A stretch of 64,000 nucleotides of DNA from Patescibacteria group bacterium (GCA_038065075.1 JBBTRQ010000019.1:9456-73455), one strand, 5' to 3'; positions 30,263-52,646 are shown, counted from the first letter of the stretch. Notes: generated from the letters alone by a model not told the origin. Numbers and translations are program-made.

Positions 30263-30292
30263 TCAAGAAAAGAACCATCAGATGATGGTTCT
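30263..30292 (-). terminator. Intrinsic terminator of WD40 paralog 1
   Basis: AGAACCATC-agat-GATGGTTCT followed by TTTTCTTG on the minus strand. Confidence 0.5.
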
Positions 30293-30320: not shown

Positions 30321-31352
30321 CTACCAGATCGCCGCGGCCAGTGCCTCGGGGGTGAGGATGGTGTTGCGTCCCAAGTCCGGACAACCGAAGTCCAAGAGAC
30401 AGGGGGCATAGCAGTCGGACGATCTTGCCGGACACTGTGTGCGGTTCTTGGAAACCAGCAGTCCCTTGCCATCATCCACGGGGATGACCGCGTCGACCAC
30501 TTCCCAGAAGTCCGTAAGCGCAAGCTCCAGCTGACCATCCGGCCAGCTCATGGCGTGCAGGCAGCCGCCTCCGCGGGTGCCATCCACGACCAAGGTGTCC
30601 CACTGCCCCACGAACAGGGTGTTTCCTGTGAAGATAAGTGCGCGAATCTCTCCGCGTGAGTGAGCGGTGAGCTCCGGCCTGTGGCGTGCCGCTCCAGTCC
30701 TCACGTCCACCAGGTGGATCTGTCCGCCTTGTGTCCCACACAGAAGCTCTCCCTTAGGCGTGAAGGTGAGAGCCCAGATGCTGGAGTCCAGCCGGAGGCT
30801 ATGGAGAGTATGGAATCTGCCATCTCCCTGCCTTGAGAGGATCTTCAGGTATCCATCCCACATCCCCACCGCCAGGATGGAACCGTCTGAAGAGAATGCC
30901 AAGCGCAAGATCTGACCCTCAAACCCCTCGAGGCACCGGAAGGTATCGCTCCCGGGATATCTCAAGAAGAGCACATTCTCGTCACCCCCTGTGGCAAGGA
31001 TGCCGTCCTGGGACAGGGCGAGGTGGTTGACAGACCAACTGGAGCTCACAATCGGTTCACCTCTTTGGCACAGATACTCCACATCCCACTCACGCAGGGT
31101 GTGGTCGTGGCTGCACGAGTAGAGGGTGCGGCCATCAGACGAGAGCGCGAGGCCGGCTACACTGTCGGTATGCCCTTCAAGGACACTACAAACTTCCCCG
31201 GTCTCCACACTCCACAGATGGATACGAGGATCCGCGTTGAATCCCCCGCCCGCCAGTGTCTTCTCGTCCTGGGACAGAGCCAGGCACCAGATCCAGCTAT
31301 TGTGCCCCCTGAACAATCGCCGAGTGGTCGGCTCGGAAACGATGCGGGTCAT
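30321..31352 (-). CDS. WD40 beta-propeller protein (7 repeats), paralog 1, with a conserved Cys-containing C-terminal tail
   Basis: Repeated GH...WD units (GHTDSVAGLALSSDGRTLYSCSHDHTLREWDV etc.). Start set at MTRIVSEPTTRRLF, preceded by AAAGGAGACCACC. C-terminal tail is YAPCLLDFGCPDLGRNTILTPEALAAAIW. Confidence 0.7.
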   Translation of the reverse strand: MTRIVSEPTTRRLFRGHNSWIWCLALSQDEKTLAGGGFNADPRIHLWSVETGEVCSVLEGHTDSVAGLALSSDGRTLYSCSHDHTLREWDVEYLCQRGEPIVSSSWSVNHLALSQDGILATGGDENVLFLRYPGSDTFRCLEGFEGQILRLAFSSDGSILAVGMWDGYLKILSRQGDGRFHTLHSLRLDSSIWALTFTPKGELLCGTQGGQIHLVDVRTGAARHRPELTAHSRGEIRALIFTGNTLFVGQWDTLVVDGTRGGGCLHAMSWPDGQLELALTDFWEVVDAVIPVDDGKGLLVSKNRTQCPARSSDCYAPCLLDFGCPDLGRNTILTPEALAAAIW

Positions 31353-31478
31353 GGTGGTCTCCTTTGAATGAACGTCTTGACCATGAAAGGTCGATGGCTC
31401 GCAGGGGCGAGCGTCAACCTCTCGTGGAAAAGGCCTAACGAGTTGCGTGTCGCTAGGCATGTGGTGGTAGTGCCCGTT
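31353..31478 (-). repeat. Conserved terminator/leader module, copy 1
   Basis: On the minus strand: terminator hairpin GCCTAGCGA..TCGTTAGGCC + TTTTCC, then hairpin GCTCGCCCCTGCGAGC, then AAAGGAGACCACC-ATG. Near-identical copies at 32511-32645, 35310-35457, 36490-36590. Confidence 0.7.
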
Positions 31479-32510
31479 CTACCACCTCGCCGCGGCTCGT
31501 GCCTCGGGAGTGAGGATGGTGTGGCGTCCCAGATCCGGACAACCGAAGTCCAAGAGACAGGGGGCGTAGCGGTCGGGCGACTCGGCCGGACTTTGCGTGC
31601 GGTTCTTGGAGACCAGCAGACTCTGGCCACCATTCACGGGGATGACCGCGTTAACCCATCCCCAGAAGTCCGTAAGTGCAAGCTCCAGCGCACCATCCGG
31701 CCAGCTCACGGCGTGCAGGCGACCGCTTCCGCGGGTGCCATCAGCGACCGAGGTGTCACACTGCCCCACGAGCAGGGAGTTTCGCGTGAACGCGAGCGCG
31801 TGGATCTCTCCGCGTGTGTGAACGGTGAGCTCCGGCCTGTGGCGTGACACTCCCGTCCTCACGTCCACCAGATGGATCTGTCCGCCCTCTGTCCCACACA
31901 GAAGCTCTCCCTCCGGCGTGAAGGTGAGAGCCCAGATGATCGAGTCCAGCTGGAGGCTGTGGAGAGTCTGGAATCTGCAATCTTCCTGCCTTGAGAGGAT
32001 CTTCAGGTGTCCATCCCACATCCCCACCGCCAGGATGGAACCGTCTGAAGAGAGCGCCAAGCGCAAGATCTGACCCTCAAACCTCTCGATACACCGGAAG
32101 GTATGGCTCCCGGGGTTTCTCAAGAAGAGCGTCTTCTCATCACCCCCTGTGGCAAGAGTGCCGTCCTGGGACAGGGCGAGGTGGTTGAAAGGCTGCTTCG
32201 AGCGCAAAGTCGGTTCACCTCTTTGACGCAGATGCTCCATGTCCCACTCGCGCAGAGTGTTGTCGTGGCTGCACGAGTAGAGGGTCTTGTCATCAGGCGA
32301 GAACGCGAGGCCGGTGACACTGTCTGTGTGCCCTTCAAGGACACCACGAACTTCTCCGGTCTCCACGCTCCATAGGTGGATCCGAGGATCTGCTCCTGAA
32401 CCCCCGCCCGCCAGTGTCTTCCCGTCTTGGGACAGAGCAAGGCGCCAGATCCAGCCGAGGTGTCCATTGAACAATCGCCGAGTGGTTGGCTCGGAGATGG
32501 TACGGGTCAT
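31479..32510 (-). CDS. WD40 beta-propeller protein, paralog 2
   Basis: Same architecture and C-terminal tail as paralog 1 (MTRTISEPTTRRLFNGH...). Confidence 0.7.
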   Translation of the reverse strand: MTRTISEPTTRRLFNGHLGWIWRLALSQDGKTLAGGGSGADPRIHLWSVETGEVRGVLEGHTDSVTGLAFSPDDKTLYSCSHDNTLREWDMEHLRQRGEPTLRSKQPFNHLALSQDGTLATGGDEKTLFLRNPGSHTFRCIERFEGQILRLALSSDGSILAVGMWDGHLKILSRQEDCRFQTLHSLQLDSIIWALTFTPEGELLCGTEGGQIHLVDVRTGVSRHRPELTVHTRGEIHALAFTRNSLLVGQCDTSVADGTRGSGRLHAVSWPDGALELALTDFWGWVNAVIPVNGGQSLLVSKNRTQSPAESPDRYAPCLLDFGCPDLGRHTILTPEARAAARW

Positions 32511-32645
32511 GATGGTCTCCTTTGAATGAACGTCTTGACCATGAAAGGTCGATGACTCGCCAGGGGCGAGCGTCAACCTCTCGTGGAAAAGGCCTAGCGA
32601 GAGCGTGTCGCTAGGCGTGCGGCTTGTGAGCCACGTGGTTGGTGA
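32511..32645 (-). repeat. Conserved terminator/leader module, copy 2
   Basis: See copy 1. Confidence 0.7.
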
Positions 32646-35309
32646 CTAATTCGTCACCGATGGCTTAACCGGCGGGATGACCTGCATACGGATGTCAGAC
32701 TCCTCTCCGTGCTGCTTGAGCACCTCCAGCGCCCACTCCACCTCGTCCCGCGCGTTGGCGGGCAGAAGCGCTCTGGAGCGCGCGTTGGCTACGGCCAACA
32801 GGGTCATGCGGGCGATTTGCGTTTGCTGTGCCTGCGGCATGTAATCGCCGATGGCCCAGAGCAGATCATCACGATTCACGCCAGGCTCCCCGTGCGTGTC
32901 GGCGTGCCGGACGATCACCTCGATGTCCGCGCCGGAGAGGCGCTTGGTCTTGTCGGCGAACTCCGTGAAGTCCGTGATGTCCGTGGTGAACCCGCCGCGC
33001 CGAATCATCACGCGGAACAAGGCTTCACGGGTCGTGGCATCGGGCATGAGCACCGGGATGACTTCGTCGCTTCGACCGGCACGCAGCATGGCCGCGTCGA
33101 TGAGATCCGGTCGGTTGCTGGCCGTCATGTAGAACACGCGGCCTCGGATGGTCGGATCGGCGAGGAAGGTCATCCACGCCTGACGCGTCCGGTTGGACAC
33201 ACCCGAGTCGCCGCTGAATCCATCGCGTCCGCCGTCGTTCTGATCGATCTCGTCCTGGAATACCACGCACGGCGCCATCAACCTTACGGCCTCCAGCTGG
33301 TCGTGCACGTTGCGCTCCGATGAGCCAACCCACATCTGTTGAGTGTGGCGAGGGATCAGCAGCAAGAGACCGGAGGCGTGCGCCAACGCCGTCGCCAGCG
33401 CACTCTTGCCGGTACCGGGCGGTCCCAGCAGTGCACACCCCATGGGCACTCGCGAGAGGTCGCCCGTGCGCATGCGCTCGCAGACGTCCAGGAGAAACGT
33501 CTTGACGCCGTCGAGTCCGGCGATGCCGTCAAACCCGTAGGGTGGGTCGATCACCTCAAACAGATGCCCGAAGCGCTCGTTGAGGATGACCAGCCTGTGT
33601 GCGACCACGTCCTTGTGGGACAGCGGCTGGTTGCCGGCCTGCGCGCGACGAAGCAGACGGCGCAGATCGCGGTAGCCCATGTTGCCGGTCAGACGAGCCA
33701 GCTCGACAACCCCCATGGTGGGCGTGTCGAACAACGATTCGTCGTCACGGGTTGCCGTGAGCCGTCGATGCTGCTCGCGCAAGTCGGTTAGTGTCTCGCT
33801 GGAGAGGTTCGGAAGACGAGCCTTGCTGTCTCGCAGTGTCTGCGCCAACTGCTGCGCGATCCGTGTGTGGTCCTCTTGCAGCTCCTGCAACCGACTCACA
33901 GCCGCTGTCGTCAGCCGATCGAGCTCGCTTTGCGCCTCTCGGATCGACGCCGGCTCGCTCGAGCACAGCGCCTCCAAGTTCCGTTGCAGCTCCTCCAGAC
34001 ACTCTGTTGCCTGCTTTCGAGCAAACGGCTTCACCGTTAGGCAAGCGACGTTGTCGGCATTGGCCACGCAGATGTCGGCGTCGTTTGCCTTGAAGCGCAT
34101 CACCAGCAATCCGCCCTCAAAGAAGAATTGGGCGGGGATGCTGGAGTTACGCGAGTCGGTGACCGGCTTGTTCGGGTTCGCCCCGCTGGCGAACTGCACT
34201 CCGCTACGTCTCGTCGCGCTCTTGAGCACAGTGAAGCGCTGTGCCCCACCACGCGAGTCCTGGACACTGACCATATCGCCGGGCGCCAAATTGGCCCAGC
34301 GAGCCTCGTCAAGAGACGCGTCATCGGTCAGGAGAGGATCGCTCCGCAGCTGTGCGCCAAGGGCATCGATCTGCGCTTGGAGATTCGCCAACTGCCCGGC
34401 ATTATCCGCGTTGAGGGACTGCCGCAGAGCCGTAAGCGAGGATCGGCACCGCTTCACGGCCGCCAGATGCCCCTTGTACTCACCGTCTTGCTTGAGGGAC
34501 TTGCGTAGGGCGCTGTGCCGTTCGTCTGCCGTCCGAGCCGCAACGATGTCGTCATTCGCTCGCGCTTGCAGTACTTGGATCTCCTCGGCGATCTGCATCT
34601 CCAGCTCTTGCTGGCGCTGCAGGCCACTGTCCGTCCTACACACCCGGCGCAAGTAAGCCTCACGCTCCGCCTGAAGGGGGGGATCCACCTTGATCAAGCA
34701 GATGGGCGAGCTGCTGTCGCGCAGCATCTGGGGCAACAAGCCGGAAGATCTGGCGCTCATGAGCACCAAATGGCCGACGATCCCAAAGGCATCGTCTTCC
34801 GCCATTCGCCGGATGAGCAACGGCGTACGCGACGACATGGCGCCGGCAGGGGAACTGTCGTCCAGACAGTAGGTGTCGACATTGGGCAGAATCACCGTGA
34901 AGCGAACCGAATCGCCGACGGCGTGCCGCAGCACGTTCATGATCTGCGACAAAGCCCCGGTGGGATCCGTCGTCTGCTCGACCCTCGACGCCACCTGCGC
35001 TCGCGCGCGGGCGATGGGATCGTCAGCTTCACCGGCAGACTGCCGGTTCTTCTTAAGCAGCTCCCCGAACGCCTCATGATCTTCGTCTCTGGGGAAGCTC
35101 AAGCCCAGAGCCGGATCAAACACGACGAAACGACGATCGGGCTCCTGCCTGACCAACGCGTCGAGTACCAGCCGGTGCCAAGGCAACAGCGCCATGGATG
35201 ACGCATCGGTCGTATTGGGGAAGCCGTCTGCGACGTTCCCGTCAAACAGGAAGCAGAAATGGCACCTGGCGCGCTCCTGCTCGAAGGTTCTCATCCAAGA
35301 TGGAGTCAT
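32646..35309 (-). CDS. Large (≈887 aa) protein: N-terminal unknown region + extensive coiled coils + C-terminal classical AAA ATPase domain
   Basis: Walker A GPPGTGKS, Walker B VVFQDEID, second region of homology RPDLIDAAMLRAGRSDEVIPV. Heptad-rich Q/L/A segments lie upstream. Start set at MTPSWMRTFEQ behind GGAGAAGAG. Confidence 0.7.
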   Translation of the reverse strand: MTPSWMRTFEQERARCHFCFLFDGNVADGFPNTTDASSMALLPWHRLVLDALVRQEPDRRFVVFDPALGLSFPRDEDHEAFGELLKKNRQSAGEADDPIARARAQVASRVEQTTDPTGALSQIMNVLRHAVGDSVRFTVILPNVDTYCLDDSSPAGAMSSRTPLLIRRMAEDDAFGIVGHLVLMSARSSGLLPQMLRDSSSPICLIKVDPPLQAEREAYLRRVCRTDSGLQRQQELEMQIAEEIQVLQARANDDIVAARTADERHSALRKSLKQDGEYKGHLAAVKRCRSSLTALRQSLNADNAGQLANLQAQIDALGAQLRSDPLLTDDASLDEARWANLAPGDMVSVQDSRGGAQRFTVLKSATRRSGVQFASGANPNKPVTDSRNSSIPAQFFFEGGLLVMRFKANDADICVANADNVACLTVKPFARKQATECLEELQRNLEALCSSEPASIREAQSELDRLTTAAVSRLQELQEDHTRIAQQLAQTLRDSKARLPNLSSETLTDLREQHRRLTATRDDESLFDTPTMGVVELARLTGNMGYRDLRRLLRRAQAGNQPLSHKDVVAHRLVILNERFGHLFEVIDPPYGFDGIAGLDGVKTFLLDVCERMRTGDLSRVPMGCALLGPPGTGKSALATALAHASGLLLLIPRHTQQMWVGSSERNVHDQLEAVRLMAPCVVFQDEIDQNDGGRDGFSGDSGVSNRTRQAWMTFLADPTIRGRVFYMTASNRPDLIDAAMLRAGRSDEVIPVLMPDATTREALFRVMIRRGGFTTDITDFTEFADKTKRLSGADIEVIVRHADTHGEPGVNRDDLLWAIGDYMPQAQQTQIARMTLLAVANARSRALLPANARDEVEWALEVLKQHGEESDIRMQVIPPVKPSVTN

Positions 35310-35457
35310 GACTCTTCTCCTCGTGTGGTGTGGGTTGGAAATTGAATGAACGTCTTGACCATGAGGGGTCGATGGCTCGCAGGGGCGAGCGTCAACCTCT
35401 CGTGGAAAAGGCCTAGCGAGCAGCGTGTCGCTAGGCATGCGGTGGGTAGTGCCCGTT
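35310..35457 (-). repeat. Conserved terminator/leader module, copy 3
   Basis: See copy 1. Confidence 0.65.
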
Positions 35458-36489
35458 CTACCACACCGCCGCGGCCAGTGCCTCAGGGGTGAGGATGGTG
35501 TTGCGCCCCAGACCCGGATAGCCAAAGTCCAAGAGACAGGGGGCGTAGCGGTCGGACGATCTTGCCGGACACTCCATGCGGTTCTTGGAAACCAGCAGTC
35601 CCTTGCCACCATTCACAGGGATGATCACGTCGACCCCTCCCCAGAAGTCCGTAGGGGCAAGCTCCAGCTGACCATCCGGCCAGCTCATGGCGTGCAGGCG
35701 GCCAAGTCCGCGGGTTCCATCCGTAATCGAAGTATCCTGCTGCCCCACAAGCAGAGCGTTTCGCGTGAACGCAAGCGCGCAGATCTCTCCACGTGTGCGA
35801 ACGGTGAGCTCTGGCCTGTGGCGTGACTCTCCCGTCCTCACGTCCACCAGGTGAATCTGCCCGCCTCCTGTCCCGCATAGGAGCTCTCCATCCGGCGTGA
35901 AGGTGAGCACCCAGATGCTTGAATCCAGCCGGAAGCGGTGGAGAGTCTGGAAGCTGCCATCTTCTTGCCTTGAGAGGACTCGCAGATGGCCGTAAGCCCT
36001 CCCCACCGCCAGGGTGGAACCGTCTGCAGAGAATGCCAGGCACCGGATCCAATTCTCGAACCCCTCGATGCGCTGGACGGTTTTGCTCCCGGGACGTCTC
36101 AAGAAGACAACGCCATCGCCACCTCCTGTGGCGAGTGTGCCGTCCTGGGACAGGGCGAGGTGACTGAGAGTACCCCTCGAACTCACAATCGGTTCACCTC
36201 TTTGGCGCAGATGCTTCACATCCCACTCACGCAGGGTGTGGTCGTAGCTGCACGAGTAGAGGGTGCGGCCATCATGCGAGAACGCGAGGCCGGTGACACT
36301 GTCTGTGTGCCCTTCAAGGACACCACGAACTTCCCCGGTCTCCACGCTCCATAGGTGGATACGAGGATCAAATCCTGAACCCCCGCCTGCCAGTGTCTTC
36401 CCGTCTGGGGACAGAGCAAGGCACCAGATCCAGCTGTTGTGTCCCCTGAACAATCGCCGAGTGGTTGGCTCGGAAACGGTACGGGTCAT
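35458..36489 (-). CDS. WD40 beta-propeller protein, paralog 3
   Basis: MTRTVSEPTTRRLFRGHNSWIWCLALSPDGKTLAGGG... with the same C-terminal tail. Confidence 0.7.
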   Translation of the reverse strand: MTRTVSEPTTRRLFRGHNSWIWCLALSPDGKTLAGGGSGFDPRIHLWSVETGEVRGVLEGHTDSVTGLAFSHDGRTLYSCSYDHTLREWDVKHLRQRGEPIVSSRGTLSHLALSQDGTLATGGGDGVVFLRRPGSKTVQRIEGFENWIRCLAFSADGSTLAVGRAYGHLRVLSRQEDGSFQTLHRFRLDSSIWVLTFTPDGELLCGTGGGQIHLVDVRTGESRHRPELTVRTRGEICALAFTRNALLVGQQDTSITDGTRGLGRLHAMSWPDGQLELAPTDFWGGVDVIIPVNGGKGLLVSKNRMECPARSSDRYAPCLLDFGYPGLGRNTILTPEALAAAVW

Positions 36490-36590
36490 GGTGGTCTCCT
36501 TTGAATGAACGTCTTGACCATGAAAGGTCAACGGCTCACCAGGGGCGAGCGTCGACCTCTCGTGGAAAAGGCCTAGCGAGTTGCGTGTCG
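36490..36590 (-). repeat. Conserved terminator/leader module, copy 4
   Basis: See copy 1. Confidence 0.65.
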
Positions 36591-37193
36591 CTAGGCATGC
36601 GAACCAAGACCCAACAGTCGTAGAACACTGGCGATTCGTCCGTGATCCGTCACGCCGTGCGAGACCACTTGACCGCCATCGATCTCCAGCGCGATGACGC
36701 TGTCCAAATCCTCTGAACGGTATCGCCCTGTCAACAGATGCACTCTCTGGTTACTACTTCCTCGCAGGGGAAGGTTGTCCACGGCCAAGAGTTGCACGAA
36801 CCGACCGTCGATAAGCACGTCCAGTTCTCGCAGAAGTTCGCGCGCCCCATCCGGCGCATGGGCACCGCGCAAGAACTTCCGTGTGTAGCCTGACCAGCAC
36901 AGCACGGACAGACCCTGCTCCTTGGCCGCGTGCGCGATCTGCGCAAGCGCCCGAGCTTGCTCAAAGGGCTCGCCTCCGGAGAAGCTCACGCCTTCGATCC
37001 CGAATCGTTCTTGCGCTTGCGCGATGCATGTGATCAACGCGTCGACAGCGACGAGGTTCCCTCCATCGCCCCAGAGCTCCGGCGTGGTGCAACCATGGCA
37101 GCCGATGGTGCAGCCCTTGACCCAAAGACACAGGCGCTGACCCGGACCCATGGCAGGCGTGCACTCGACCACGCGCCCGACGCGCAGGATCAT
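36591..37193 (-). CDS. Small radical-SAM / 4Fe-4S single-cluster protein of the NrdG / QueE activase type
   Basis: 'GPGQRLCLWVKGCTIGCHGCTTPELW' gives C-x3-C-x2-C in the NrdG/QueE-like context. About 200 aa. Confidence 0.55.
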   Translation of the reverse strand: MILRVGRVVECTPAMGPGQRLCLWVKGCTIGCHGCTTPELWGDGGNLVAVDALITCIAQAQERFGIEGVSFSGGEPFEQARALAQIAHAAKEQGLSVLCWSGYTRKFLRGAHAPDGARELLRELDVLIDGRFVQLLAVDNLPLRGSSNQRVHLLTGRYRSEDLDSVIALEIDGGQVVSHGVTDHGRIASVLRLLGLGSHA

Positions 37194-37402
37194 CCTCCAC
37201 CTCTGACCTTCCCACCGGATGGGACGGGAATGGGCGGAGCGCTTGCGTCGGGCACGTTCATCTCGTCAACACGTCCGCCCAACAACGCCAGGATGGCGCG
37301 CAGGCGTCGAGCCTCCTCCTGGCAGACGCCCGGAAGCGCTTCGACTTGGATGTCCACCGTGCCGTCGCCCTTCACGACGACGATGATCTCTCTGGCGCTC
37401 AT
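37190..37402 (-). CDS. Small protein (70 aa), translationally coupled to the radical-SAM gene
   Basis: 4-nt overlaps on both sides. Ends in a Pro/Gly-rich tail (PPIPVPSGGKVRGGG). Confidence 0.3.
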   Translation of the reverse strand: MSAREIIVVVKGDGTVDIQVEALPGVCQEEARRLRAILALLGGRVDEMNVPDASAPPIPVPSGGKVRGGG

Positions 37403-37965
37403 ACGTCCACCTTTCGGCCGACGATGACCAGGGCGCCGTCGGCTCCGCGCGTTTCCACGATGTCATCGACACAGAGAATCTGCATGGCCGCACGCATCTG
37501 CTGCTCATGAAAGTGACGCCGCAGACAGTCCTTCCACTGTGCAAGCTCGGCAGGGTGGCACTGCTGCGTTCCCGTGTTCCAGAACTGAAAGAAGGTGCCG
37601 TCCTCTCGGATCCCAACCCCCAACTGGAGGAATGTCCCGTTATTGAGCACGCCAAGAACTTCGCCTTGGTCCGGATCGCCGCTCTTGGAGCCGTAGGTGC
37701 TGGCGTTGTCGTAGCTCTTGGCGCATGTGCAACCCATCTCTTGCGCGGCTGCCGCAAGCGCTTGGCGCATGGCGTGGGCACGCACCTCCTGCCAATTGAT
37801 GGCGGCCAGATCCGCATCCTGCGCGCCGATCTGACCTAGTGCGCCCGTGACGGATCCGGCATCGGCGATCTCTCCGATGTGGAGCTTGTGATAGTGCAGA
37901 GACACCTGTCCTCCTGTGGGGAAGGTTATTCCATGGACAAAAGAGACGATTTTTCCCTTTGCCAA
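37399..37965 (-). CDS. Hypothetical protein (188 aa), first gene of the radical-SAM operon
   Basis: No recognisable motif. Overlapping stops and starts indicate an operon. Confidence 0.35.
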   Translation of the reverse strand: MAKGKIVSFVHGITFPTGGQVSLHYHKLHIGEIADAGSVTGALGQIGAQDADLAAINWQEVRAHAMRQALAAAAQEMGCTCAKSYDNASTYGSKSGDPDQGEVLGVLNNGTFLQLGVGIREDGTFFQFWNTGTQQCHPAELAQWKDCLRRHFHEQQMRAAMQILCVDDIVETRGADGALVIVGRKVDV

Positions 37966-38069
37966 GGAGAAACGTTTTTATATCAAAAACGCGAATGTGT
38001 CAATGAAAAATCCCGGACATCTAATCCGAGATATTCTGCTAGAAAGGTCTCTACAATATGATCACCTAC

Positions 38070-39437
38070 CTACCATTCATGACTACTCTGATATTCCGGC
38101 ACGATCACCTCCGTTTTGAGCTTGTGTCGAAGGTGTGTGGCGAAGACCTCCTTGGCCTCCGGATCGCCGTGCACGAGAAAAATCTTTTTTGGAATCTTGC
38201 CGTCTTCGGGCTTGAGCCAGCGCGTGAGCTTGTTCATGTCCGCGTGCGCCGAGAAGGCGCCGATCGCGCTTACTTGCGCGTGCACCTCCACGTCCTCGCC
38301 AAAAATCCGCACCTTCTTCGCCCCTTCGTACAACTTTCGCCCCGTCGTCCCCTGCGCCTGGTAGCCGATGATGAGCAGACGGTTGTTCTTGCCTGGGAGA
38401 TAGCGGATCAGGTGATGCATGATGCGTCCACCCGACATCATCCCGGAACCCGCGACGATAATTTTGGGTGGCACGGCATCGTTGATTGATTTGGACTCTT
38501 CCACAGAGAGAGTCTCGCGCAAATTCGGAAAGCTGAAGAAGTCCTTGTCGGGATCCTTCAGAATGGATTCATCGAATTTCAAAAACTGTTTGAAGTGTCG
38601 GTAGAGCGCCGTAGCCTTAATCGCCATCGGACTATCCAGATAAATCGGGAGCTTCGTGTGGAGGTCTTCTAAAAGAAGTTTGTTGATTTCGTACAGGAGC
38701 TCTTGCGTACGCTCGATCGAAAACGCTGGGATCATCAAGACCCCGCGAAGTTTGATGATATCTTGAATCGCCTCCTTCAACTTGGCTCCGCGCGTGTCCA
38801 TGCCCTCGTGTTCGCGGTGTCCGTAGGTCGATTCGCAGATGACGATGTCCGCATGGGAGATCGGTTCGGTGTCGGGAAGAATCGGCACGTCGTCGTTACC
38901 AATGTCCCCAGAGAAGACCACACGCTCTCCTTGTGCATCCACCGAGATGTAACTTGAGCCCAGCACATGACCCGCTTCATGAAAGACAACGGTCACCCCA
39001 GGCCACAGGTCGATATGCTCATGATAGGTCACGCTTTTGACTTGCGCGAACGCGCGCTCCAGATCTTCGAGTTCGTACAAGACCGAGCTCCCACATTTTT
39101 CTGCTTCTTCCTTCATGATGTGGTGTGCGTCCTCAAGCACCAATTTCGCCAAACCCACGCACGGCTCCACCATGTAGATCGGTCCCGTGAATCCTTCTTT
39201 CACGAGCTTAGGCAGACGCCCGGTGTGGTCGGCATGCGGATGGGAAACAAAAACGGCTTCAATCGCGGAAGCATCGAACTTAAACGCATCCTGGTTCTTG
39301 TTGCCGCACATGTGTTCCCCCTGGAACATGCCGCAATCAAACAGGATCGCGTGCGACTTTTTTTCCGCATCGAGAAACTCTAACCGATGGCATGAGCCCG
39401 TCACCTCCCTCGCGGCCCCATGAAATGAAATGTTCAT
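38070..39437 (-). CDS. Metallo-beta-lactamase fold / beta-CASP ribonuclease (RNase J/CPSF-like)
   Basis: HxHxDH motif (VSHPHADHTG) and beta-CASP region with conserved D/H. 455 aa. Confidence 0.65.
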   Translation of the reverse strand: MNISFHGAAREVTGSCHRLEFLDAEKKSHAILFDCGMFQGEHMCGNKNQDAFKFDASAIEAVFVSHPHADHTGRLPKLVKEGFTGPIYMVEPCVGLAKLVLEDAHHIMKEEAEKCGSSVLYELEDLERAFAQVKSVTYHEHIDLWPGVTVVFHEAGHVLGSSYISVDAQGERVVFSGDIGNDDVPILPDTEPISHADIVICESTYGHREHEGMDTRGAKLKEAIQDIIKLRGVLMIPAFSIERTQELLYEINKLLLEDLHTKLPIYLDSPMAIKATALYRHFKQFLKFDESILKDPDKDFFSFPNLRETLSVEESKSINDAVPPKIIVAGSGMMSGGRIMHHLIRYLPGKNNRLLIIGYQAQGTTGRKLYEGAKKVRIFGEDVEVHAQVSAIGAFSAHADMNKLTRWLKPEDGKIPKKIFLVHGDPEAKEVFATHLRHKLKTEVIVPEYQSSHEW

Positions 39438-52502: not shown

Positions 52503-52646
52503 ATCCTCCTAAAGGTGCCTCGTCATTGCGAGGGAGCGTAGCGACCGAAGCAATCTTTCATCGAAGGATTGCTTCGCTGGCGCTCCCGCCGTCGCTAAAG
52601 CTATGGCGGGCAGGCGCAATGACACAGACTTGATGGAAACAGTATA

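What the first reader, a model, noticed from the sequence alone, without database searches (positions are those of the whole stretch)
31353..36590. Near-identical ~125-nt terminator/leader module precedes each WD40 gene and the AAA gene
Four copies of the module occur, at 31353-31478, 32511-32645, 35310-35457 and 36490-36590. Read on the minus strand, each copy has a strong terminator hairpin (GCCTAGCGA-loop-TCG(C/T)TAGGCC + TTTTCC), then a TTGACG-containing stretch, then a perfect hairpin GCTCGC-CCCT-GCGAGC, then a canonical SD (AAAGGAGACCACC-ATG). The coding sequences between the modules differ: the WD40 genes share ~330 codons, while the AAA gene is unrelated to them. A module kept this similar around different genes points to a functional cis-acting unit, or to gene conversion. 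The function could be an autonomous promoter plus a structured 5' UTR, such as an RNA thermometer, riboregulator or attenuator. Each gene would then be an insulated transcription unit under shared regulation.
Basis: seen in the sequence. Interest (0 to 1): 0.7.

Follow-up and report, generated by a model that had tools for sequence, protein, structure and literature searches.

The report
Conserved two-hairpin RNA spacer between operon genes
The four near-identical ~110-nt spacers are real and belong to a previously undescribed family of structured RNA "punctuation marks" that sits at every gene junction of a rare operon of Patescibacteria (radical-SAM enzyme, large AAA ATPase, many WD40 propeller paralogs); they probably act on the mRNA (ends, stability, translation) and not as promoters.

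Summary
Four minus-strand copies (36596-36487, 35436-35307, 32616-32508, 31458-31350) are about 95% identical. The WD40 genes between them differ at dS 0.25-0.32.

The anatomy needs correcting. The module is a 9-bp GC hairpin (H1) that abuts one long 22-bp hairpin (H2). A single-stranded box GUUCAUUCAA follows, then SD and ATG.

The same architecture, with different sequence, occupies essentially every junction of homologous clusters (p170-p70-rSAM, AAA, 2-8 propellers) in about 13 other Patescibacteria/Uhrbacteria contigs.
- A covariance model built without any window sequence finds exactly the four window modules (29-33 bits; next hit 11 bits).
- 19 of 26 pairs show compensatory changes.
- G·U outnumbers A·C, so the sense strand is the folded one.
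- There is no Rfam match, no sigma-70 promoter, and no SD sequestration.
- The only canonical promoter lies upstream of the first gene, whose 5' UTR also carries a hairpin plus a similar box (exact motif in relatives, loose in the window).

Best reading: an intercistronic RNA module that gives each cistron its own protected 3' and 5' ends and a shared 5' UTR signal. The exact mechanism is untested.

The parts
36487..36596 (-). Module copy 1 (radical-SAM gene to WD40-A). H1 36596-36571, of which the 5' arm 36596-36588 contains the rSAM stop codon. H2 36570-36513. Box GTTCATTCAA 36510-36501. SD GGAG 36499-36496. ATG 36489-36487.
   Evidence: Covariance model R2 scores 32.4 bits, E 4e-6.
35307..35436 (-). 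Module copy 2 (WD40-A to AAA gene). H1 35436-35411. H2 35410-35354. Box 35351-35342. A 21-nt extra spacer follows. SD 35320-35317. ATG 35309-35307.
   Evidence: R2 scores 29.4 bits, E 2.4e-5. The part covered by contig L094 (86 nt, from within H2 to just before the ATG) is 100% identical there, although the CDS is 96.2% identical.
32508..32616 (-). Module copy 3 (AAA gene to WD40-B). H1 32616-32592. H2 32591-32534. Box 32531-32522. SD 32520-32517. ATG 32510-32508.
   Evidence: R2 scores 31.6 bits, E 6.4e-6.
31350..31458 (-). Module copy 4 (WD40-B to WD40-C). H1 31458-31433. H2 31432-31376. Box 31373-31364. SD 31362-31359. ATG 31352-31350.
   Evidence: R2 scores 33.5 bits, E 2.1e-6.
37975..38003 (-). 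The only canonical promoter of the cluster: TTGACA, 17 nt, TAAAAA. It is followed by a 5' UTR with a pyrimidine/purine hairpin and a loose copy of the box (GUCUCUUUUG), then GGAGG and the GTG start of p168.
   Evidence: Sequence and fold. The same layout, with exact GTTCTTTCAA-type boxes, occurs in L087, L093 and L100.
37399..37905 (-). p168, the first gene of the cluster. It has no known family and is conserved in all homologous clusters (171-192 aa).
   Evidence: Gene call in L001. Alignment A9. No Pfam, NCBIfam, PADLOC or PDB match.
37190..37402 (-). p70, a small conserved protein whose ends overlap both neighbouring genes. Its C-terminus is of the K/R-V-x-G-G type.
36591..37193 (-). NrdG-like radical-SAM activase (200 aa). 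Its stop codon lies inside H1 of module 1.
   Evidence: Pfam Fer4_12, E 1.7e-31. NCBIfam NrdG scores 91 bits, below its cut-off.
35458..36489 (-). WD40-A, 343 aa.
   Evidence: Pfam WD40. Paralog comparison.
32646..35309 (-). AAA ATPase, 887 aa. A classical CDC48/FtsH-type AAA module (residues 620-805) follows a 600-aa N-terminal region found only in this small family.
   Evidence: In one search, 24 full-length-type relatives were found among 1.84 billion representative proteins.
31479..32510 (-). WD40-B, 343 aa.
30321..31352 (-). WD40-C, 343 aa, the last gene of the cluster.
30265..30292 (-). End of the cluster: an unrelated hairpin AGAACCATC-ATCT-GATGGTTCT followed by TTTCTT. There is no H2 and no box.
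   Evidence: Read in the sequence. The last genes of L087, L090 and L100 likewise end with an ordinary hairpin plus a long T-run.

Best explanation
The module is a conserved, sense-strand RNA element that punctuates one polycistronic mRNA. The operon is transcribed from the single promoter upstream of p168.

At every junction after the radical-SAM gene the RNA folds into two abutting hairpins. H1 is a very stable GC hairpin close to the upstream stop codon. H2 is a 16-24-bp helix whose base pairs a pyrimidine strand (CUUUUCC...) with a purine strand (...GGUCAAG / GGGAAAG) and usually carries a C·A mismatch. H2 is followed by a single-stranded box GUUCWUUYCAA and then the SD.

I infer that H1 serves as the 3' end and 3'-exonuclease barrier of the upstream cistron, possibly with weak termination. 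I infer that H2 plus the box serves as the protected 5' end and common leader of the downstream cistron. These ends would arise either by an endonucleolytic cut at or near the H1/H2 joint or the box, or simply because both helices stop exonucleases. Each cistron would then decay and be translated as its own unit, with all units sharing one signal (the conserved helix base and the box) read by the same trans-acting factor.

Shown here: the structure, its conservation, the strand, and its restriction to this operon. Inferred: everything about cleavage, stability and the factor.
For: 1. Structure. z-scores run from -3.6 to -6.2. H1 plus H2 is predicted in every junction of all clusters.
2. Conservation in homologous clusters with different sequence: L003, L004, L005, L087, L090, L091, L092, L093, L098, L100, L104 and L105.
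3. A covariance model built only from other clusters finds all four window modules full length on the gene strand at 29-33 bits. The next hit in 64 kb scores 11 bits. No convincing hit falls outside the cluster in any locus: the best are 8-14 bits with E above 1.
4. Covariation. Within one genome (L087, 9 copies), 9 of 26 pairs have compensatory changes. Across 5 clusters, 90.9% of cells are paired against 75.3% in shuffles (0 of 500 reach it), 19 of 26 pairs change on both sides, and slid controls give 38-49%.
5. Strand. There are 58 G·U against 16 A·C cells outside the one conserved C·A position, and the orientation always follows the genes.
6. Selection. Module divergence is about 0.05 against dS 0.25-0.32 in the flanking paralogs. 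In the nearest strain the differences fall only in the H1 loop.
7. The primary 5' UTR of the first gene carries the GTTCHTTYMA box downstream of a canonical promoter in L087, L093 and L100, preceded by a predicted hairpin in L093 and L100; the window has the hairpin but only a loose GUCUCUUUUG version of the box. H2 plus the box therefore looks like the leader unit and H1 like the trailer unit.
8. The box is specific to the cluster. In the window, 4 of 5 matches are the modules, and the motif is enriched on the sense strand of the other clusters.
Against: There are no transcript data, so neither cleavage nor termination nor stability has been observed.

H1 and H2 abut with 0-1 nt between them, which leaves no obvious single-stranded target for RNase Y/E-type enzymes at the joint.

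A pure exonuclease barrier would not need the sequence conservation seen in the helix base and in the box. A specific binding factor, so far unidentified, is implied.

The covariation counts were made on alignments fitted to the model, which favours the structure.

The copies within the window show only wobble-type changes and no double compensatory change.
Confidence: 0.5

Rival explanations
1. The module is the binding platform for a regulator that belongs to the system, for example p168, p70, the AAA protein or a propeller. The conserved helix base with its C·A mismatch, together with the GUUCWUUYCAA box just upstream of every SD, would be bound by one protein. That protein would switch translation or stability of all cistrons together, as an autoregulatory or stoichiometry control. 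This overlaps with the best explanation: same RNA, different primary purpose.
For: Sequence, and not only pairing, is conserved across clusters whose AAA proteins are only 26-34% identical. UUU at columns 56-58, the pair G63-C122 (29 of 30) and the pair A64-U121 (26 of 30) are nearly invariant, and so is the box. The box is absent from housekeeping leaders in the 64-kb window. It also sits in the first gene's leader in L087, L093 and L100, so most or all genes of the operon would be covered.
Against: No protein of the cluster has a recognisable RNA-binding domain. There are no matches in Pfam, NCBIfam, PADLOC or PDB profiles, and the structure models were unusable. The distance from box to SD varies from 1 to more than 40 nt, with whole extra hairpins inserted in some clusters. 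That is unusual for a translational operator.
Confidence: 0.2
2. Each module is a terminator followed by an internal promoter and a structured leader, so each gene is a separate, co-regulated transcription unit.
For: A GC-rich hairpin followed by T-rich sequence lies after each stop codon. Leader elements are shared with the primary 5' UTR. An unconventional sigma factor or promoter type cannot be excluded by consensus scans.
Against: No -35/-10 pair occurs in any module, although these organisms use textbook TTGACA-17-TAAAAA/TATTAT promoters at the operon start and at a tRNA gene. The conserved blocks are separated by variable lengths. The TTGACG of the window is not conserved in relatives. 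The region upstream of H2, where a promoter would have to lie, is H1 itself and differs completely between clusters. The T-run is short, is not conserved as a U-run (CUUCCCAC in L091), and is not called terminator-like.
Confidence: 0.12
3. The module acts as DNA. It would be a hairpin-forming repeat that serves as substrate for recombination or replication slippage and drives expansion, contraction or shuffling of the propeller gene array (an attC-like or repeat-mediated cassette system).
For: Propeller copy number varies from 2 to 8 between clusters. The modules flank each unit. Assemblies break inside them. Several relatives have further tandem hairpin repeats in the same spacers. A G·T bias would also fit a folded single DNA strand.
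Against: None of the loci read contains a gene with integrase or recombinase Pfam domains within the flanks shown (gene tables). There are no R-box-like AAC/GTT core sites. The 'cassettes' are paralogs of one gene. The module also separates single-copy genes (rSAM to propeller, propeller to AAA). It is tightly coupled to stop codon, SD and ATG, and the box is also in the primary leader. Homologous recombination between any 100-nt repeat would give copy-number change as a side effect without being the selected function.
Confidence: 0.07
4. There is no function. The similarity is only the residue of recent tandem duplication and gene conversion.
For: The three WD40 genes are tandem paralogs. Within the window no double compensatory change is seen.
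Against: The module is 5-6 times more conserved than synonymous sites of the adjoining genes. It flanks non-homologous genes. It is kept with covariation in clusters of distant organisms, including nine diverged copies within L087.
Confidence: 0.03

Closest known systems
RNase III processing hairpins between the early genes of phage T7 (R0.3, R0.5, R1, R1.1, R1.3). Recalled from established knowledge, not tested here.
   Same: A family of similar, imperfect, roughly 20-bp hairpins with internal mismatches is repeated at successive gene junctions of one polycistronic transcript. They leave each mRNA with a structured end.
   Different: There is no sequence or Rfam relationship. Here there are two abutting hairpins plus a conserved single-stranded box. 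Cleavage is not shown. The host is a Patescibacterium, not a phage: no viral contig carries the module pattern or the AAA N-terminal family.
Intercistronic stabiliser hairpins (REP/BIME in malE-malF; the pufA-pufL hairpin of Rhodobacter), which protect the upstream segment from 3' exonucleases. Established knowledge.
   Same: A stable GC hairpin sits just after a stop codon inside an operon, in gene orientation, and is expected to set differential or segmental mRNA stability.
   Different: REP elements are dispersed genome-wide. This module occurs only inside one operon: there are no other hits in the 64-kb window or in any flank. It also carries a downstream leader part.
5'-terminal stem-loop mRNA stabilisers of Gram-positive-type decay systems (ermC and aprE leaders; cryIIIA STAB-SD). 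Established knowledge.
   Same: A hairpin at or near the 5' end, followed by a short single-stranded element upstream of the SD. The first gene's leader starts with such a hairpin right after the predicted start in the window, L093 and L100. Genes for RNase Y (L091) and a beta-CASP RNase J-like enzyme (window) show that this type of decay machinery exists in these organisms.
   Different: For the internal copies a 5' end at H2 would first have to be made by processing, which is unproven. The purine strand resembling an SD is paired, not free.
Intrinsic (Rho-independent) terminators used as internal attenuators of operons.
   Same: H1 is a GC-rich hairpin followed by U residues, downstream of a stop codon.
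   Different: The U-run is only 2-7 nt and is not conserved as a U-run. It is always the 5' strand of the next helix. It is not called by the consensus scan in the window. The true ends of the clusters use different hairpins with longer T-runs.
Integron attC sites and other repeat-punctuated cassette arrays.
   Same: A similar 60-140-nt imperfect palindromic element occurs after each gene of a co-oriented array. Copies are nearly identical within a genome and different between genomes.
   Different: There is no integrase, no R''/R' core sites, paralogous rather than unrelated genes, two separate hairpins rather than one, and tight coupling to SD and start codon.

Membership tests
Any Rfam 15 RNA family | A match to a curated covariance model at or near its gathering score | tested here: not met
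   The gathering scan of the window gives only 2 tRNAs and DUF3800-IX elsewhere. Permissive scans of a module and of L003-L005 give only chance-level hits with E above 0.3.
Intrinsic terminator | A GC-rich stem-loop directly downstream of a stop codon | tested here: met
   H1 is 9 bp with 6-7 G-C pairs. It lies 0-29 nt after the stop codon, or overlaps it.
Intrinsic terminator | A run of U (at least 5 of 8) immediately after the stem, free to form the weak rU:dA hybrid | tested here: not met
   The window has CTTTTCCA, which is 4 T. None of the modules is listed by the terminator scan. Relatives range from CUUCCCAC (L091) to UCUUUUCUU (L087). The run is the 5' strand of H2 in all folds.
Intrinsic terminator | Transcripts actually end there | not testable with these tools
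   This needs 3'-end mapping.
Sigma-70-type promoter | -35 and -10 hexamers with a 16-18 nt spacer, conserved in homologous positions | tested here: not met
   No site lies in the modules. The TTGACG is not conserved in other clusters. Canonical promoters are seen only upstream of the first gene.
RNA thermometer or SD-sequestering riboregulator | The SD or start codon is paired in the conserved structure | tested here: not met
   The SD is unpaired in the centroid fold of all four copies (a weak 2-bp contact appears in two of the four MFE folds). The consensus structure ends before the box.
Transcription attenuator or riboswitch | Mutually exclusive terminator and antiterminator helices, with a conserved core in loops and junctions | tested here: not met
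   H2 lies downstream of H1 and shares no stem nucleotides with it. The conserved nucleotides are in the basal helix, while the apex and the loops vary freely.
RNase III-type intercistronic processing site | An imperfect double helix of roughly two turns in the transcript | tested here: met
   H2 has 22 bp in the window and 16-19 bp in relatives, with positioned 1x1 mismatches.
RNase III-type intercistronic processing site | Cleavage by RNase III in vivo or in vitro | not testable with these tools
   No transcript-end or enzymatic data are available.
Dispersed repeat (REP/BIME, MITE) | Many copies scattered over the genome, in both orientations | tested here: not met
   Only the four copies occur in 64 kb. 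No copies occur in the 10-kb flanks of 10 other clusters. All copies are in gene orientation. The rest of the source genome could not be scanned.
Integron attC array | An integrase gene, R''/R' core sites (RYYYAAC...GTTRRRY), and unrelated cassettes | tested here: not met
   No gene with integrase or recombinase Pfam domains appears in the gene tables of the loci. No such core sites are seen in the module sequence. The genes are paralogs.
Upstream ORF / leader peptide | A conserved short reading frame | tested here: not met
   The window has ATG GTC AAG ... TGA overlapping the WD40 start. The frame relative to the box differs in L003, L004 and L090, and the ATG is absent in most L087, L100 and L093 copies (sequences).

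The most novel reading that the evidence does not exclude
The operon carries its own RNA 'punctuation code'. The repeated H1-H2-box module would be recognised and cut or bound by a dedicated factor encoded in the same cluster (p168, p70, or the AAA/propeller machinery), in the way Cas6 reads CRISPR repeats or ToxN reads ToxI repeats. The same repeats would let the propeller array expand and contract. Together this would give a self-contained system that controls the dosage of a diversifying family of WD40 paralogs in ultra-small Patescibacteria.
Probability: 0.12. Interest if true: 0.8.

Novelty: new variant of a known kind. Interest (0 to 1): 0.55.

Why it matters
Almost nothing is known about how gene expression is organised in Patescibacteria (CPR), which cannot be cultured alone.

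This is a clear, covariation-supported, family-specific RNA element with about 45 instances in about 13 clusters, and it is absent from Rfam. It marks a conserved but uncharacterised operon: an NrdG-like radical-SAM activase, two unknown small proteins, an AAA ATPase of about 900 aa with an orphan N-terminal region, and 2-8 diverging WD40 propellers.

The finding gives a ready-made search model for the system. It explains why these loci assemble badly, because contigs break in the repeat. It also offers a testable example of operon punctuation by a repeated two-hairpin module.

If a dedicated reader protein exists, it would be a new RNA-protein recognition pair.

Tried and rejected
1. Rfam scans, both gathering and permissive, found nothing.
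2. Promoter and terminator consensus scan: no module site was found.
3. Leader-peptide idea from the ATG in CTCATGG: rejected, because neither the frame nor the ATG is conserved.
4. Alternative pairing of the box with the SD or with the purine strand of H2: it fits some clusters (L093, L100) but not the window, where the box abuts the SD. Dropped.
5. attC, MITE and REP readings were rejected (see the membership test).
6. Protein search of one genome per species (GTDB) with the whole AAA alignment was swamped by generic AAA motifs. It gave only four distant, shorter relatives without propellers, rSAM or module.
7. The third word-indexed protein search, run with the alignment, returned only the query itself.
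8. Viral collections hold neither the module pattern nor the AAA N-terminal family.
9. Mistake corrected: searches used ORF 37266-37817, an overlapping wrong-frame ORF. The real genes are p168 (37399-37905) and p70 (37190-37402). The correct proteins have no family matches.
10. Structure prediction of p168 from a single sequence gave pLDDT 41. It is unusable, so no fold search was run.
11. Literature searches found no description of the cluster or the motif.
Full report
**1. What is in the window**

On the minus strand the region holds one co-oriented cluster:
- p168 (37905-37399) and p70 (37402-37190).
- An NrdG-like radical-SAM activase (37193-36591; Pfam Fer4_12, E 1.7e-31).
- WD40-A (36489-35458).
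- An 887-aa AAA ATPase (35309-32646).
- WD40-B (32510-31479) and WD40-C (31352-30321).

The first three genes overlap end to start. The alignment of the four copies, the repeat finder (family D6) and exact parsing give these extents: 36596-36487, 35436-35307, 32616-32508 and 31458-31350.

The 96-nt cores are about 94-95% identical. The three WD40 genes are 84-86% identical in DNA and 76-79% in protein, with dS 0.25-0.32 and dN/dS about 0.5. The spacer is therefore much better conserved than the silent sites next to it.

After WD40-C there is no module. A different hairpin with a T-run follows, then a 99-codon ORF, lepA and recJ. The source is a Patescibacteria MAG with locus tags AAB413_03155 to 03180.

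**2. Corrected anatomy**

Folding each copy (MFE -41.7 to -51.5 kcal/mol, z -3.6 to -6.2, no shuffle as good) shows two abutting hairpins.
In copy 1 it contains the stop codon of the radical-SAM gene.
- H2 starts at the very next base. CUU..CCA.GAGAGGUUGA.GCUCGC pairs with GCGAGC..UCGACCUUUC.UGG..AAG. The 'U-tract' CUUUUCC is therefore the 5' strand of H2, the 'TTGACG' is inside the stem, and the 'perfect hairpin' is only its tip.
- The elements after H2 are AC, the box GUUCAUUCAA, and then SD and ATG. In front of the AAA gene a 21-nt longer spacer comes before the SD.

The consensus scan finds no promoter-like and no terminator-like site in any module.

Among the four copies there are 11 variable columns. 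Four are unpaired, six are G-C/G·U switches that keep the pair, and one breaks a pair. There is no double compensatory change inside the window.

**3. Related clusters**

The AAA protein has a 600-aa N-terminal region with very few relatives. A full HMMER pass over 1.84 billion representative proteins gave 38 hits, of which about two dozen are full length, 25-34% identical and 850-980 aa long. Sources name them Candidatus Uhrbacteria or Patescibacteria.

I looked up their contigs and those of the closest WD40 relatives. All have the same cluster: p170-190, p68-85 and a radical-SAM protein of about 200 aa, then an array of 2-8 propeller genes with one AAA gene embedded. L087 has 3 + AAA + 5, L105 has 5 + AAA + at least 1, and L090 has AAA + 4. 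The flanking genes are ordinary housekeeping genes.

In all of them essentially every junction after the radical-SAM gene carries H1 abutting H2, then the box, then the SD, but with different sequence:
- L003-L005: CUUUUCCACGAG - stem - CUCAUGGGAAAG.
- L090: CUUUUACACGAAC - stem - GUUCAUGAGAAAG.
- L087: CUCUUUUCUUGAAG - stem - CAUCAAAGAAAGA.
- L100 and L098: CCUUUCUGCGC - stem - GCACCGAAAGG.
- L093: CCUUUCUGCGAAA - stem - UUUCACCGGAAG.
- L091: CUUCCCACGCCGCG - stem - CGCUGCGUGGGAGG.

The exceptions are two short spacers in L091 (31 and 48 nt) and the degenerate L092 cluster, which lack it.

The last gene of each cluster ends with an ordinary hairpin and a long T-run, without H2.

Several contigs start or stop inside the module (L003, L005, L006, L094). 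This is the behaviour expected of a repeat that breaks assemblies.

More distant, shorter AAA relatives found in the species-representative genome collection have no propellers, no radical-SAM gene and no module.

**4. Statistical support**

- RNAalifold on the nine L087 copies alone predicts 26 pairs, 9 of them with compensatory changes.
- A covariance model from those nine (R1) finds modules in L100, L098, L093, L090 and L004.
- A second model (R2) was built from 16 copies of five clusters, none of the window type. It finds the modules of L003-L005, L091, L092, L104 and L105.
- With filters off, R2 finds the four window modules at 29.4-33.5 bits (E 2e-6 to 2e-5). The next hit in the whole window scores 11.2 bits.
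- No hit with E below 1 lies outside a cluster junction on the sense strand. Antisense hits are partial and come from the palindromic H2.
- On the 16-sequence alignment, 90.9% of cells pair against 75.3% in column shuffles (0 of 500 reach it). 19 of 26 pairs change on both sides (shuffle mean 10.9). Sliding the partner by 1-3 columns drops pairing to 38-49%. The caveat is that this alignment was fitted to the model.
- In 30 sense-strand copies from 9 clusters there are 599 Watson-Crick, 58 G·U and 35 A·C cells. Nineteen of the A·C cells sit at one position, which is C·A in 19 copies, U-A in 10 and C-G in 1.

The excess of G·U over A·C, together with the fixed orientation, means that the sense strand is the folded one. 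RNA is the simplest reading.

**5. What it is not**

- It is not in Rfam.
- It is not a promoter. There are no hexamer pairs, the spacing between the conserved blocks varies, and the place where a promoter for H2 would have to lie is H1 itself, which differs between clusters. These organisms use textbook promoters elsewhere. TTGACA-17-TAAAAA sits upstream of p168 in the window (38003-37975) and upstream of the first gene in L087, L093 and L100. TTGACG-17-TATTAT sits at a tRNA gene in L090.
- It is not a thermometer or SD-masking element, because the SD is unpaired.
- It is not a classical attenuator or riboswitch. H2 is downstream of H1 and shares no stem with it, and the apex is the variable part.
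- It is not a leader peptide, because neither the frame nor the ATG is conserved.
- It is not a dispersed repeat and not an attC array. It is found only in the cluster, no integrase is present, and the genes are paralogs.
- It is at best a weak terminator. The U-run is 4 nt in the window, 2-3 nt in GC-rich relatives, and always paired.

**6. A clue to function**

The box GUUCWUUYCAA is the most sequence-conserved element across clusters. In the window the pattern GTTCHTTYMA occurs five times, and four of these are the modules. In the other loci it is concentrated on the sense strand of the cluster.

It also occurs in the primary 5' UTR of the first gene in three relatives. There a canonical promoter is followed, near the predicted start, by a small hairpin (predicted in L093 and L100) and then by the box (GTTCTTTTCA in L087, GTTCTTTCAA in L093, GTTCTTTACC in L100). 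The window leader has the hairpin but only a loose version of the box, GUCUCUUUUG, which does not match the search pattern.

'Hairpin + box + SD' is therefore the common leader unit of most or all genes in the operon, and H1 is the trailer unit of the preceding gene. These bacteria have Gram-positive-type decay enzymes: an RNase Y gene in L091 and a beta-CASP RNase J-like gene next to the window cluster. In that setting, terminal hairpins are known to protect mRNA ends.

**7. Interpretation**

I am about 85-90% confident that this is a selected, sense-strand RNA structure specific to this operon. The most economical mechanism is operon punctuation. H1 protects or defines the 3' end of the upstream cistron. 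H2 and the box protect or define the 5' end and the leader of the downstream cistron. This would happen either after an endonucleolytic cut or by stopping exonucleases. I give this about 40-50%.

The sequence conservation of the helix base, the C·A position and the box argues that one trans-acting factor reads all copies. It could be a housekeeping RNase or a protein of the cluster, but none of the cluster proteins has a recognisable RNA-binding domain.

None of the RNA-level steps has been observed. Transcript-end mapping would decide between them.

**8. Novelty and verdict**

The kind of element is known: structured intercistronic elements such as T7 RNase III sites, REP stabilisers and 5' stem-loop stabilisers. 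This family is undescribed. Its layout is unusual because the two helices abut, the pyrimidine run is used as a helix strand, a conserved box is shared with the primary leader, and one copy sits at nearly every junction. It marks an uncharacterised operon restricted to Patescibacteria. Interest is moderate to good, and I rate it a new variant of a known kind.

Noticed in passing
window 37190-37402 (-), and A10 (L087 5500-5709, L090 9090-9305, L091 7769-7996, L093 7960-8166): The 70-aa protein encoded just before the NrdG-like radical-SAM activase ends in a conserved P-x-I-P-N-G-V-P...G-K/R-V-x-G-G tail. That tail recalls both a glycyl-radical site (R-V-x-G) and a ubiquitin-like GG end. The protein could be the activase's substrate.
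   Followed up: partly
window 30321-36489 (-); L087 6586-18688; L105 34-9646; L091 8748-19568: The WD40 propeller genes form tandem arrays of 2-8 diverging paralogs. In the window dN/dS is about 0.5 and the proteins are 76-79% identical. The copy number and the position of the AAA gene within the array differ between organisms.
   Followed up: partly
window 32646-35309 (-): The 600-aa N-terminal region of the AAA ATPase is nearly an orphan. It has about two dozen full-length relatives among 1.84 billion representative proteins, all from Patescibacteria/Uhrbacteria-type sources.
   Followed up: yes
L003 1-100 and 2879-3050; L095; L093 14143-14330 and 9919-10000; L097 4290-4480; L098 2880-3030; L092 7775-7990: In several relatives the same spacers have also accumulated arrays of other short tandem hairpin repeats. 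Examples are 14- and 17-nt units that pair with each other and extend H1 in L003, and six copies of a 33-nt unit AAACACAGGGTCGGGAAACCCGATGTTTGT in L093. These junctions appear to be hot spots for hairpin repeats.
   Followed up: no
L093 10001-10220: The AAA gene call of 983 aa in this contig seems extended too far upstream. A full module lies at 10074-10149, inside the called ORF. A 910-aa version of the same protein exists in the same cluster of sequences.
   Followed up: partly
window 63705-63769 (+): A confident Rfam match to the DUF3800-IX RNA motif (59.1 bits; gathering score 36.8).
   Followed up: no
window 12995-13051 and 15046-15102; tRNA at 15081-15165 (-): A 57-nt direct repeat (81% identical) has its second copy overlapping the 3' end of a tRNA gene. 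It brackets about 2 kb with three minus-strand ORFs (250, 145 and 134 aa). This looks like a small element inserted at a tRNA, although no integrase is present.
   Followed up: partly
window 52507-52557 and 63123-63173: Two copies (75% identical) of a 51-nt element containing CGTCATTGCGAGG...CGAAGCAATC. Its nature was not examined.
   Followed up: no
window 38070-39437 (-): A beta-CASP/RMMBL (RNase J or CPSF-like) ribonuclease gene lies directly upstream of the cluster in the window, but not next to the homologous clusters elsewhere. It is probably housekeeping and not part of the system.
   Followed up: partly
window 37266-37817 (-): A 183-codon ATG ORF overlaps p168 and p70 in another frame on the same strand. 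It is listed by the mechanical ORF finder but is not the gene. Homologs align only to the 37399-37905 and 37190-37402 frames.
   Followed up: yes
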